Origin: Trypanosoma brucei
Lineage: Eukaryota
Direction: 5' to 3'
DNA length: 64,000 nt
NCBI GenBank assembly: GCA_000002445.1
Contig: CM000207.1
Coordinates: 32,001 to 96,000 of the forward strand
Positions 6,001 to 9,000 of the stretch are shown one piece after another. The position numbers were made by a program. Positions within the stretch are counted from its first letter, which is position 1. Each line of letters opens with the position of its first letter.

Positions 6001-9000
6001 CAACATACTGAGAAAACTAAATGTGAGGAAGAAAACAAGGGTAAAACAACCCCGTTTGTGGCTGGAAAAGGGGCAAAAACGGCGAAACAGATGAGCCTGA
6101 CAAAGAAAAAAGCAGAAACAACAGTTTTCTTGTCAATAAGAAATTCGCTCTTATGGTTGCTATTTCTCTTATTTATGTGGCATTTTAACACTTTAAGAAT
6201 TTTTCCCAATTTTAAGAAGTTTATGAAACTTTATACTTTGAGAGAATTTGCTTTGCTTGCTAAATTTTTATGTGTCTTATCACTCATTGATGGAAATTTT
6301 AAAAATAGTAAAAATGCAAAAATATGAAGACTAGGTATGACATTGGGCTGTGGGCGTAAAGCACTATGGTTGTAAGGTATGAAAAATGAGTCATATTCCA
6401 ATATTGTATATTTTCTCTATCTTGTTTACTAAATGGACATTAGCATGGGTTATAATAGCAATATTTTATTGCAATAATAGTGGCTTTCTGTGAGTGTGTA
6501 TATGCTAATATTTTAATAAAAGTAGTAATAATAATAATAACAATAATAATAGGAGTGTGTTGTGAGAGTGTATATAATAATATTATAATAAAAGGAGTTG
6601 TAAATACTAAATATGTGGACAGAATAGGAACAATTCAAACAATAGAAAAGGTGAAATTGGAGAGAGAGTGTGTAAGAGATAAAGAGAACGTGGAATATTA
6701 TTAAAATAAAGTAAAGACAGGGAGGAAAGACGAATTGAAGATGCGCAGTTTTATACACAAACATGACTATGACCAGCATCATACATAAGGAGATAAGGGA
6801 GAGAACAATAAAGGAGACACAGTGTCTGGAAAAAATGAAGGCACCGAAAGTAATGCAAAGAAGCATTGCAAGTTAAATGGACACTAGTTGCGCTTTTTTC
6901 AATATGCTCTCAAGAACTCGTCAAATAATGCATTATTTAACTCAAAGCACTCTCATGGATAAAGATCAGCCTTCCACAGAGAATATAGCTGACTAATAGC
7001 TGTGAACGTTGCCTGAAAGTGCGTTTCTTGTACGGAAGGTAACTACTCTTATATGTAAATTATAATGTAGCGGTTTTTGATTTCACCCAACTTTGCCTTA
7101 AATGTCAAAAGTAGCATAAAATTTAAAAAGTGACAGGAAGAGAAAGAACGCACAAACCACAAGTGGAAAAGCAAAATTAAGACTCTTATTTCTGCTTAAG
7201 GTAGCTTATAAACGTCAACCTTTGATCCTCATGTACTCAGGCGAGTTCGTAAAGTTACAAGACAAAACAAAGCATTTTTTGTCCTAGGATGATGCCAGGT
7301 AGAGGTTTGGAAAGTGAGGTTAAATGGAAGATGTAGAAAATTACATATGTTCTGACTTTTTAGACGATGATTAAAAATTATTATCAGAACAAAAACCAGA
7401 AAAAGGAGTAATTTCCGATCATAATTTCATCCATTTTACATGTTTCTGTCTCTTTAAGCTTATAACAAAAAACATCAAGAAACAAAATGTCCTTTAAAAA
7501 CATAAAAAAACTTTGCGTATAATAGTTTTACGATATGGTCCAGCAGAAAAAAACAAGTTCTATTTAGCGCAAACACACAGTCAAATAAAAAATGCAAAGA
7601 ATAAGCAACTAAAAAGAAGCAACCAATTAGTTTGAATAACTGCAGTCTTAGCAACTCTCCCTAACACACACGGCAAAGAAAGACAATAAAAACGACACAA
7701 TAGCAATAAAGCGACCATATCTTCCCGAAAGTGGCCACTCCAGGCGGCTCAACTATTGCCTTTCACTGGGGTAAAGGCTCAATTCACCGAAGAAACTGAA
7801 GTCTAGAGCCAGCGATCTTTTCAGCAGAAGTCTGAAACGGTAGACAGAATTGGACAGAGTCTAAAGAAACAGCGTTGAACAAATCACGGGTACACCAGTT
7901 GGTTTGGCCTAATTTTTCAAACTCAATAGCAATGTAATGGAAGTGTATTTTTTAAAACAAAGGGTATCATTACCAAGAAAATTGTAAACGGCTTGAAAAG
8001 ACACGAAGTTCAATTCACAGGCGCAAGCACACAGACAAATAAAGCCAGACCATGGTCGAGCAAACAATTAGATTCCGTATATTTATTCCGAAACAAATAC
8101 GAAAAGGGAAAAGGGAAGAAAACTACATGCCTCAGCGACCAAATAATGCAGACAACCAACTCTATTTCTAGAACGAGCATTTAAAGCTAAAACATCCGAA
8201 CGGCAGAAAATCCCTGGACTTGGTCATTTTGTATGCGGCAAAAACCACACAGAAAACAGTGCAAGTATCAACTTGTTCAGGCGACACAGCAAGTCAGAGA
8301 AACATAATACCTTCATACAAGACACCACTTCCGAATATGACTAATGAACCACAACTCCGGTAAATGCAAATCTGCCATTAAAATACTTCCTGGTTTTTAA
8401 TTACTTCTTGTTAGTCACCATGAAGGCTTACTTAGTGATTTTTTTACTCTTTGGCGTGTTTTTTCAGATCCAAACAGCATACGCTGACGACAATGATGAG
8501 CTGGCGACAGCGGCAGCGACGTTATGCGAGGAAAAGGCTTATCTAACATAGCTGAGGCCACACTTAACAGCTGCTGCACCGAAAAAAGCAAAGACACAAA
8601 AGAAGCCTCGGAACTGACATAGCAAGCGACAAGGTACCTGTGGCCGCGGAAGCTACCAGCGAGCATATAAGGCTGATTAAGAAGGTGAAACACTTTGCAA
8701 AGATAACATTCACAGACTCAGGAGCACCGCACGGAGGCAGCAACGCAAACAGCCGCAATTTTAATATAAACAAGACGCTAGGGGGAAAGCCGCTATGCAC
8801 AGCAGTTGAAAACATCAATAGGAGAGGAGGTAAAAACAAACAGTCTGAGTATAGCAAGCCGCATACAATTAAGACATAAGACGCAACTAAGATAATGGAC
8901 TTCCTAGAAGGGGTGAAGACAACACTAACTGTCCTCAACAGCTGCACAGACACAACCGGCGTAAGCCGCACATACACGGCAGCGATGGTCTCCAGCTCGT

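What the first reader, a model, noticed from the sequence alone, without database searches (positions are those of the whole stretch)
6640..6840. Conserved ~150-250 bp module immediately downstream of the 70-bp repeats (at least 11 copies); the minus strand repeatedly encodes an FPSIISLC peptide
Directly 3' of most 70-bp repeat blocks lies a recurring element with the motifs GAGA(T)AA..GTGGAATATTATTAAAG ... GGAATATGCGCAGTTTCAAACACAAGCACGAC ... ATCATACACAAGGAGATGATGGAGGGGAA. Copies occur at about 3190-3300, 6640-6840, 10190-10350, 22140-22340, 26440-26530, 29830-30010, 32690-32800, 35500-35610, 38330-38480, 43790-43890, 52330-52530, 55550-55700 and 59490-59670. The reverse complement of the last motif translates to F-P-S-I-I-S-L-C-M. 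Accordingly, the - strand ORFs at 3226..3510, 10164..10406, 6513..6866 and 59479..59727 share (F/I)PSIISLC...VMFV/VHIQ peptides. This may simply be nucleotide conservation of a recombination or processing module, for example the boundary of the co-transposed segment or splice and poly(A) signals for the upstream cassette. It could instead be a short hydrophobic ORF. I do not recognise it as a named element.
Basis: seen in the sequence. Interest (0 to 1): 0.5.

Follow-up and report, generated by a model that had tools for sequence, protein, structure and literature searches.

The report
Conserved non-coding block after 70-bp repeats
The recurring sequence just after the 70-bp repeats in this Trypanosoma brucei surface-antigen (VSG) gene array is real, but it is a decayed, non-coding stretch at the start of each VSG gene's upstream flank, not a small gene, and no function of its own could be shown.

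Summary
The window is a head-to-tail VSG array of T. brucei TREU927, with two ingi retroelements. A profile built from five copies finds eight more, all on the + strand and each about 100 nt 3' of a 70-bp repeat. It also finds six copies on three independent T. equiperdum contigs. Two (22140, 52330) are divergent variants, and two copies (441-567, 40965-41102) were missed.

The module is not a discrete element. It is the best-preserved ~90-140 nt of a ~600-nt homologous 5' flank that starts at the last 70-bp repeat. Pairwise identity is ~0.6 in the module and ~0.5 in the rest.

The minus-strand ORF reading is rejected:
- there is no codon periodicity;
- 33 of 39 indels break the frame;
- the homologous frame is interrupted in 4 of 13 copies;
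- the excess of open frames disappears once the shared nucleotide sequence is allowed for;
- no protein homologue was found.

I found no sense-strand polypyrimidine tract, no RNA structure and no Rfam match. In one recent paralogue pair the module changes as fast as its neighbours.

Best reading: a degenerate ancestral sequence tied to the 70-bp-repeat boundary, forming the start of the co-transposed region, and carried passively. Interest is low to moderate.

The parts
6480..6596 (+). 70-bp repeat units (two GT-rich cores, at 6485-6499 and 6557-6571) immediately 5' of the finding
   Evidence: Core pattern search; sequence read
6597..6826 (+). Conserved 5'-flank block of the finding's own cassette; module core 6680-6816. 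It covers profile positions 1-238 only, and the flank is unrelated to other cassettes after ~6830.
   Evidence: nhmmer; no hits beyond +300
355..967 (+). Conserved 5'-flank block, full length; module core 441-567.
   Evidence: paralogue on T. equiperdum L001 3454-4060 at 93% identity
3114..3750 (+). Conserved 5'-flank block, full length; module core 3206-3346
10115..10705 (+). Conserved 5'-flank block, full length; module core 10194-10334. Upstream of the intact B-type VSG at 11485-13038.
26370..26828 (+). Conserved 5'-flank block; module core 26431-26540 (its 5' part is deleted)
29771..30376 (+). Conserved 5'-flank block, full length; module core 29852-29990. Upstream of the B-type VSG at 30662-31966.
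32560..32862 (+). Conserved 5'-flank block, proximal ~300 nt only; module core 32678-32780
35375..35991 (+). Conserved 5'-flank block, full length; module core 35495-35595
38305..38901 (+). Conserved 5'-flank block; module core 38337-38473
40868..41289 (+). Conserved 5'-flank block with an internal deletion (40868-41170 plus 41212-41289); module core 40965-41102.
43768..44271 (+). Conserved 5'-flank block; module core 43800-43909. An ingi element (44553-49791) is inserted downstream of it.
55482..55865 (+). Conserved 5'-flank block; module core 55559-55688
59447..60068 (+). Conserved 5'-flank block, full length; module core 59535-59674, the copy closest to the consensus. Upstream of the ORF at 60406-61365.
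22100..22683 (+).
   Evidence: matches 52283-52768 at E = 1.8e-12 and 3090-3389 at E = 0.005; z = 5.5 against the type-1 consensus
52283..52872 (+).
   Evidence: (z = 3.2)
13463..13796 (+). Type-2 flank, cut short by the ingi insertion at 13823-19066
   Evidence: matches 22102-22409 and 22149-22430 at E about 1e-6

Best explanation
The module is the best-preserved stretch of a degenerate, non-coding segment of about 600 nt. That segment forms the 5' end of every VSG cassette's upstream flank, the 'co-transposed region', and it starts where the last 70-bp repeat ends.

It behaves as the single-copy 3' edge of the 70-bp-repeat boundary. It is always in the same orientation and at the same distance from the repeat. 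It precedes both A-type and B-type VSGs.

Shown: it is homologous DNA, it does not encode a protein, it lacks a sense-strand splice-acceptor tract, and it has no conserved RNA structure.

Inferred: it spread and persists because cassettes are duplicated, and probably reshuffled, together with their 70-bp-repeat boundary. It then decays roughly neutrally. It looks like a discrete 150-250 bp 'module' for two reasons. The proximal ~250-300 nt is the part kept in all cassettes, while distal parts are often deleted or replaced. The purine-rich simple sequence between the repeat and the module also diverges faster. On this reading the block is carried passively into an expression site when a gene conversion starts in the 70-bp repeats. 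At 50-65% identity it marks where usable homology between cassettes ends, and it does not itself provide homology.
For: Recurrence and position: 13 type-1 and 3 type-2 copies follow all 16 loci with 70-bp repeats, all on the + strand. All six such loci on T. equiperdum contigs have it too.

Extent: homology covers about 600 nt. Pairwise identity is 0.57-0.65 at profile columns 136-225 and 0.40-0.55 elsewhere. The island is significant but modest (0.59 against 0.49; column permutation P = 0.002).

Occupancy: 12.4-13 rows per profile column over the module core, falling to about 7-9 further downstream. Three copies stop at profile positions 238-297.

Not coding.

No polypyrimidine tract on the + strand. 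No consensus RNA structure on either strand and no Rfam match.

No extra constraint: in the 91%-identical pair, window 297-2804 against L001 3398-5910, substitutions are 5.5% in the module, 5.0% in the distal flank and 4.5% in the rest of the flank. The profile-column counts over the two recent pairs agree.

Independence from VSG lineage: the type-1 flank precedes both PF00913 (A-type) and PF13206 (B-type) VSGs.

Literature: the cassette is described as 70-bp repeats, then 5' flank, ORF and 3' flank (PMC3607257). The 5' limits of conversion are reported to map upstream of the co-transposed region (PMC2900300).
Against: The module is a statistically significant conservation island. Purely neutral decay does not predict that, unless mutation rate or alignability differs along the flank.

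The same flank family sits upstream of both A-type and B-type VSGs. From my own knowledge, those two classes are older than the 70-bp repeats. So the flank was either homogenised or exchanged between cassettes, or it is under some constraint. I did not tell these apart.

The rate comparison rests on two recent pairs with few substitutions (14 of 178 in the module). A global alignment of the second pair was unreliable.

No expression-site, minichromosomal or metacyclic cassette could be examined.

Deleting a co-transposed region is reported to destabilise the active expression site (Davies 1997, as cited in PMC2900300 and PMC8612549). So some part of that region may be functional.
Confidence: 0.6

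Rival explanations
1. The block is a weakly constrained cis-acting DNA element in chromatin or replication-factor biology. It could be a preferred binding or nucleation site for ORC1/CDC6, or for positioned nucleosomes, that helps keep array VSGs silent. It could also be the part of the co-transposed region that stabilises an active expression site.
For: The module is a significant conservation island and follows every 70-bp locus examined. ORC1/CDC6 sites in TREU927 VSG arrays are over-represented in the VSG 5' flank (53% of sites against 40% of sequence), are spaced about 7 kb apart, and their knock-down raises reads from intergenic sequence in the arrays (PMC3607257). Nucleosomes are organised around subtelomeric ORC1 sites (PMC5359979). 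Deletion of a co-transposed region is reported to cause rapid switching (cited).
Against: The enrichment in 5' flanks is modest. The spacing implies that only about every second cassette is bound, whereas every cassette has the block. Identity is only about 0.6, and the module shows no reduced substitution rate in the recent paralogues. Nothing here links the ChIP peaks to these coordinates.
Confidence: 0.2
2. The block extends the recombination homology of the 70-bp repeats. Array cassettes have only one or two repeats, so an extra few hundred nucleotides of shared sequence would help pairing, or would set the 5' conversion junction.
For: It directly abuts the 70-bp repeat in every cassette, in a fixed orientation. 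It lies where 5' conversion limits are reported, 'in or near' the 70-bp repeats (PMC12137147; PMC2900300). Its presence upstream of both VSG classes suggests exchange between cassettes.
Against: Pairwise identity of 0.5-0.65 with frequent indels is far below what homologous recombination normally uses. BLAST-level pairwise matches cover the module at a depth of only 1-2, against a depth of 10-17 in the 70-bp repeats. The stretch closest to the repeat is the fastest-diverging part, the opposite of a homogenisation gradient. The literature places junctions upstream of the co-transposed region.
Confidence: 0.12
3. The minus strand encodes a short hydrophobic protein with an FPSIISLC motif.
For: Eleven of 13 copies have at least one stop-free minus-strand frame across the module, against 6.0 +/- 1.7 in mononucleotide shuffles. 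Nine of 13 keep the homologous frame open for at least 68 codons.
Against: There is no third-position excess of variation (0.59/0.54/0.56), and 33 of 39 indels are not multiples of 3. Four copies are frame-broken, and in one of them (38337-38473) a different frame is the open one. A null that keeps column composition expects 8.2 +/- 1.8 copies with an open frame, P = 0.09. The minus strand is 60-71% pyrimidine, so stop codons are rare anyway. There is no Pfam domain and no homologue among 5.8 billion proteins. The ORF would be antisense to the direction in which the VSGs are transcribed, in arrays described as not normally transcribed (PMC3607257).
Confidence: 0.02
4. It is an RNA-processing signal for the sense transcript once the cassette sits in an expression site (a trans-splice acceptor or poly(A) site), or a structured RNA.
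For: Unstable transcripts are reported from the co-transposed region of the active expression site (PMC5698767). The position is fixed relative to the repeats.
Against: The + strand is 60-71% purine, with no pyrimidine run longer than 5 nt in any copy. RNAalifold predicts 0 pairs on either strand, and folding energies do not differ from shuffles. There are no Rfam hits. The block lies roughly 0.3-1.3 kb upstream of the VSG start in the cassettes where that start can be placed, too far to be the VSG splice acceptor.
Confidence: 0.04

Closest known systems
VSG co-transposed region (CTR), also called the VSG 5' flank of the cassette
   Same: Same place and orientation: the stretch between the last 70-bp repeat and the VSG ORF. 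It is annotated as the '5' flank' in TREU927 arrays (PMC3607257) and called the CTR in expression sites (PMC2900300). The block is simply the first 250-600 nt of it.
   Different: [quoted passage not shown] Here its 5' end belongs to one degenerate sequence family, with two subtypes, shared by all 16 cassettes in the window and 6 in T. equiperdum. I could not check any expression-site CTR.
70-bp (76-bp) repeats of T. brucei
   Same: They are adjacent and co-oriented, and together with the block they mark the 5' boundary of the cassette. Both are found upstream of A-type and B-type VSGs.
   Different: The block is not tandem. It has no (TAA)n run and no GT-rich core. Its profile gives no hit inside the tandem 70-bp array at 67-349. 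It is far less conserved: BLAST depth is 1-2, against 10-17 for the repeats.
3' homology block of VSG cassettes (the sequence encoding the C-terminus and the conserved 3'-UTR element)
   Same: It is another shared sequence at the edge of otherwise unrelated cassettes, and it is detected here as self-similarity peaks at VSG 3' ends.
   Different: The 3' block has known roles: it encodes part of the protein, it has been linked to VSG mRNA stability, and it serves as the 3' conversion limit (as described in PMC2900300 and PMC5698767; otherwise my own knowledge). No role is shown for the 5' block.
Conserved upstream flank classes of other antigen gene families, such as the ups types of Plasmodium falciparum var genes (analogy from my own knowledge, not tested)
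   Same: A gene family with hypervariable coding sequence has a small number of conserved 5'-flank sequence types. Type 1 and type 2 are seen here.
   Different: The ups sequences contain promoters and correlate with gene subgroups and chromosomal position. Here there is no promoter evidence, and the flank type does not follow the A/B class of the VSG.

Membership tests
VSG cassette 5' flank / co-transposed region | Lies between the last 70-bp repeat and the VSG ORF, in the same orientation as the VSG | tested here: met
   All copies are on the + strand and start at the end of the last 70-bp repeat. VSG domains lie downstream on the + strand.
VSG cassette 5' flank / co-transposed region | Copied together with the VSG during duplicative gene conversion into an expression site | not testable with these tools
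   This needs switcher genomes or expression-site sequences. The literature places the 5' limits upstream of the CTR (PMC2900300).
VSG cassette 5' flank / co-transposed region | Sequence unique to each cassette, as the CTR is described in the literature | tested here: not met
   The first 250-600 nt are homologous between cassettes (profile E-values 1e-14 to 1e-30; the independent contigs give 1e-6 to 1e-16). Identity is only 0.5-0.65, so the sequence is 'unique' in practice for recombination or hybridisation.
70-bp repeat | Tandem unit of about 76 bp with a (TAA)n-type run and a GT-rich core | tested here: not met
   TRF finds tandem arrays only at 67-349. The module profile has no hit there. 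The alignment shows the block starting after the repeat's ATATTATAATAA end.
Protein-coding small ORF (minus strand) | Codon-position bias in substitutions, frame-preserving indels, and a conserved open frame | tested here: not met
   Identity by codon position is 0.59/0.54/0.56, and 33 of 39 indels are not multiples of 3. The frame is broken in 4 of 13 copies. The count of open frames is not significant against the column-resampling null.
Protein-coding small ORF (minus strand) | Homologous proteins or domains exist | tested here: not met
   No Pfam hit for three of the ORFs. No hit at E <= 0.01 among 5.8 billion proteins.
Trans-splice acceptor / polyadenylation signal (sense strand) | A polypyrimidine tract upstream of an AG on the transcribed strand | tested here: not met
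   The longest + strand pyrimidine run is 2-5 nt in all 13 copies, and the purine fraction is 0.60-0.71.
Trans-splice acceptor / polyadenylation signal (sense strand) | Mapped spliced-leader or poly(A) addition sites | not testable with these tools
Structured non-coding RNA | A conserved secondary structure with covariation, or a match to an Rfam model | tested here: not met
   RNAalifold predicts 0 pairs on both strands. Mean fold z-scores are +0.7 and -0.2. There are no Rfam hits at gathering thresholds in the window.
ingi/RIME retroposon fragment | Sequence similarity to ingi or RIME | tested here: not met
   The two ingi copies in the window (13823-19066 and 44553-49791) are not hit by the module profile or the long-flank profile.
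ORC1/CDC6-bound site of VSG arrays | ChIP enrichment of ORC1/CDC6 over the element | not testable with these tools
   Only the location class agrees: the 5' flank is over-represented among binding sites (PMC3607257).

The most novel reading that the evidence does not exclude
The block is the sequence feature behind the recurrent, non-replicative ORC1/CDC6 binding and nucleosome organisation reported in VSG 5' flanks. Equivalently, it is the functional core of the co-transposed region, whose removal destabilises the active expression site. In either form it would be a cis-element, linked to the 70-bp repeats, that helps silence array VSGs or stabilise the expressed one.
Probability: 0.1. Interest if true: 0.6.

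Novelty: new member of a known kind. Interest (0 to 1): 0.25.

Why it matters
VSG switching depends on where homology between cassettes begins and ends. The textbook picture has two shared blocks, the 70-bp repeats upstream and the C-terminus/3' UTR downstream. Between the repeats and the gene it places a 'unique' co-transposed region of unknown purpose.

This result shows that the start of that region is one old sequence family, tied to the repeat boundary and independent of VSG class. That gives a precise landmark, in the form of a profile or consensus, for several tasks:
- annotating cassette boundaries;
- asking how the 70-bp-repeat 'frame' spread over A-type and B-type VSGs;
- re-analysing ORC1/CDC6, nucleosome, R-loop and break maps at base resolution.

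It also removes a set of spurious small ORFs from consideration. As it stands this is a refinement of known cassette anatomy, not a new mechanism.

Tried and rejected
The element had to be detected with profiles.
- Pairwise BLAST self-comparison barely sees the module, at depth 1-2.
- Minus-strand ORF: tested by frame tracing, codon periodicity, indel lengths, shuffles, a column-resampling null, Pfam and a protein database search. Rejected.
- Sense-strand splice signal: rejected on composition.
- RNA structure and Rfam: nothing.
- Degenerate 70-bp repeat, or an ingi/RIME fragment: no similarity.
- Link between flank type and VSG A/B class: none seen.
- Look-ups of TREU927 contigs by exact protein failed. 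Only three short T. equiperdum contigs could be fetched, so no expression-site or minichromosomal cassette was examined.
- A MAFFT global alignment of the second recent pair (window 3103-4503 against L001 6203-7578) was inconsistent with BLAST, so I did not use it.
- The classic papers on 5' flanks (Aline 1985; Campbell 1984; Marcello & Barry 2007) are not held in the library. I therefore cannot exclude that one of them already describes this conserved stretch.
- Seven full-text searches found no paper that describes it.
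Full report
**Context.** The window is a subtelomeric VSG array. Long + strand ORFs carry VSG domains: PF13206 (VSG_B), PF00913 (A-type) and PF10659 (C-terminal domain). 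The ORF at 20253-21779 is 100% identical to an NCBI protein named 'variant surface glycoprotein (VSG, atypical), putative [Trypanosoma brucei brucei TREU927]', which lies on a 3,057,547-bp contig. Most VSGs in the window are fragmented into shorter ORFs. Two 5.24-kb ingi retroelements, 97.8% identical to each other, lie on the minus strand at 13823-19066 and 44553-49791. They encode an endonuclease, a reverse transcriptase and RNase H. The GT-rich core of the 70-bp repeat occurs at 16 loci, all on the + strand. Only the first locus (67-349) is a tandem array long enough for TRF to report.

The copies at 22140-22340 and 52330-52530 fail the profile search. They belong to a divergent 'type-2' version of the same flank. 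They match each other at E = 1e-12 to 1e-19 and match the flank at 13463-13796. They also align to the type-1 consensus better than shuffles do, with z = 5.5 and 3.2. So all 16 repeat loci are followed by a member of this family, directly or through a chain of matches.

**What the element really is.** The module is not a free-standing unit of 150-250 bp.
- Single-sequence searches with whole flanks show homology from the repeat out to about +500-550 nt, with the deepest coverage at +150 to +250.
- A long profile aligns 590-640 nt in seven cassettes. In non-seed cassettes it aligns shorter stretches: 26370-26828, 43768-44271, 55482-55865, 32560-32862, 40868-41170 plus 41212-41289, and 6597-6826.
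- Mean pairwise identity along this profile is 0.57-0.65 at columns 136-225, 0.49-0.55 on either side, and about 0.40 by column 600. Occupancy falls from 13 to about 7-9 copies.
- With near-duplicates removed and the T. equiperdum copies added, the module averages 0.59 against 0.49 for the rest. The best 90-column window exceeds all but 0.2% of column permutations.

So the module is a real but modest conservation island within a longer decayed homologous flank. Part of its apparent discreteness comes from deletions. Three cassettes, including the finding's own (6597-6826), keep only the first 240-300 nt.

Further downstream, homology is patchy and shared only by subsets of cassettes.

**Coding test.** The minus strand does have open stretches with FPSIISLC-like peptides, but every test for coding fails.
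- In the frame defined by that peptide, conservation by codon position is 0.59, 0.54 and 0.56, so there is no third-position relaxation.
- Of 39 distinct indel events in the core, 33 are not multiples of three.
- The homologous frame is interrupted in 4 of 13 copies. In one of these (38337-38473) a different frame is the open one.
- Eleven of 13 copies have some open minus-strand frame, against 6.0 +/- 1.7 in mononucleotide shuffles. The copies are not independent, and the minus strand is 60-71% pyrimidine. Resampling each column from the observed bases keeps the nucleotide conservation but applies no coding selection. That null gives 8.2 +/- 1.8 copies, P = 0.09.
- None of the three ORFs tested has a Pfam domain. 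A 117-residue translation found nothing at E <= 0.01 among 5.8 billion proteins.

**Other functional readings.**
- The + strand of every copy is purine-rich and has no pyrimidine run longer than 5 nt. It cannot be a sense-strand trans-splice acceptor tract.
- RNAalifold predicts no base pairs on either strand. Folding energies do not differ from shuffles. Rfam finds nothing in the window.
- The block has no similarity to the 70-bp repeat unit or to the ingi copies.
- The type-1 flank precedes both A-type VSGs (at 4868, 27973, 42110 and 50482) and B-type VSGs (at 1581, 11485, 30662, 36305, 38816 and 57841). The type-2 flank precedes a B-type VSG (20253) and an A-type VSG (53994). The block therefore goes with the repeat boundary, not with a VSG lineage.

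**Constraint.** The first cassette of the window has a 91%-identical relative on T. equiperdum L001. The table gives substitutions per compared site in that pair.

| Segment | Substitutions per site |
|---|---|
| Stretch next to the repeat | 11.6% |
| Module | 5.5% |
| Distal conserved flank | 5.0% |
| Rest of the 5' flank | 4.5% |
| VSG ORF | 8.6% |
| 3' flank | 19.7% |

Counts on profile columns over the two recent pairs combined point the same way: 14 of 178 in the module, 37 of 649 downstream and 41 of 250 upstream. The numbers are small, but the module does not evolve more slowly than its neighbours. The island seen among old copies may therefore reflect faster turnover of the purine-rich simple sequence next to the repeat, together with deletions further downstream. 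It need not reflect selection on the module.

**Literature.**
- Tiengwe et al. 2012 describe TREU927 array cassettes as 70-bp repeats, 5' flank, ORF and 3' flank.
- Maree et al. 2017 report organised nucleosomes around subtelomeric ORC1 sites (PMC5359979).
[quoted passage not shown] They place the 5' recombination limits upstream of it (PMC2900300).
- Deletion of a co-transposed region is cited as causing rapid switching.
- Unstable transcripts arise from the co-transposed region in the active expression site (PMC5698767).
- Hovel-Miner et al. [quoted passage not shown]

None of the papers I could search describes a conserved block at the start of the flank. The classic 1980s flank papers and Marcello & Barry 2007 are not held in the library, so an earlier description cannot be excluded.

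**Interpretation.** My best explanation, at confidence about 0.6, is that the module is the best-preserved part of a degenerate, non-coding sequence that forms the single-copy 3' edge of the 70-bp-repeat boundary and the 5' end of the VSG 5' flank, or co-transposed region. It is inherited and redistributed together with that boundary, and it is carried passively. At 50-65% identity it marks where usable homology between cassettes ends.

The rivals are:
- a weakly constrained chromatin or ORC-related cis-element, or an expression-site stability element (0.2);
- an extension of recombination homology (0.12);
- an RNA-processing or RNA-structure element (0.04);
- the minus-strand ORF (0.02).

**Novelty and score.** The region as such, the VSG 5' flank or co-transposed region, is long known. 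The finding that its first few hundred nucleotides form one sequence family in two subtypes, shared by all cassettes examined, appears to be undescribed in the literature I could reach. It qualifies the 'unique co-transposed region' statement. I file it as a new member of the known set of cassette-boundary homology blocks. Interest is 0.25: it is a useful landmark, but it has no demonstrated function and no surprising mechanism.

Noticed in passing
window 13823-19066 and 44553-49791 (minus strand): Two ingi retroelements, 97.8% identical over 5.24 kb, are each inserted inside a VSG 5' flank, downstream of the conserved block and upstream of the VSG ORFs at 20253 and 50482. Neither disrupts a VSG ORF. 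The flank homology resumes after the insertion: 19107-19847 matches 56476-57305, and 49891-50286 matches distal flanks of other cassettes.
   Followed up: partly
window 297-2804 vs L001 3398-5910: In a 91%-identical cassette pair (TREU927 against T. equiperdum), divergence is very uneven. The 5' flank differs by 4.5-5.5%, the VSG ORF by 8.6%, the 3' flank by 19.7%, and the ~100 nt next to the 70-bp repeat by 11.6%. This suggests either a mosaic history or locally raised mutation at both cassette edges.
   Followed up: partly
window 13463-13796, 22100-22683, 52283-52872: A second, divergent subtype ('type 2') of the conserved 5' flank is present in 3 of 16 cassettes. Like type 1, it precedes both A-type and B-type VSGs.
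   Followed up: partly
window 3648-4172, 10594-11073, 32934-33294, 49891-50286, 52569-52872, 22498-22836: A further patch of homology lies in the distal 5' flank, about 550-1000 nt after the repeat. It is shared by only a subset of cassettes, and it is colinear with the proximal block. The 5' flank is therefore a mosaic of old segments with different distributions.
   Followed up: no
window 6827-7400: In the finding's own cassette the flank loses all similarity to other cassettes right after the module, at about 6830. This points to a deletion or replacement with its breakpoint at the module's 3' end. Cassettes 32560-32862 and 40868-41170 break off at nearly the same profile position (about 290-297).
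   Followed up: partly
window 9903-9931 and 59325-59399: There are perfect simple repeats: (TA)14.5 in a VSG 3' flank, and (ATA)25 forming the TAA-type run of the 70-bp repeat upstream of the best-conserved module copy.
   Followed up: no
whole window, inter-VSG regions: The + strand of all intergenic and flank sequence is strongly purine-rich, with positive GC skew and positive AT skew (for example GC skew +0.12 to +0.18 in the flank-rich 2-kb bins). The skews are weaker or reversed over the ingi elements. Such a G-over-C excess on the non-template strand is the sort of bias generally associated with R-loop formation when DNA is transcribed.
   Followed up: no
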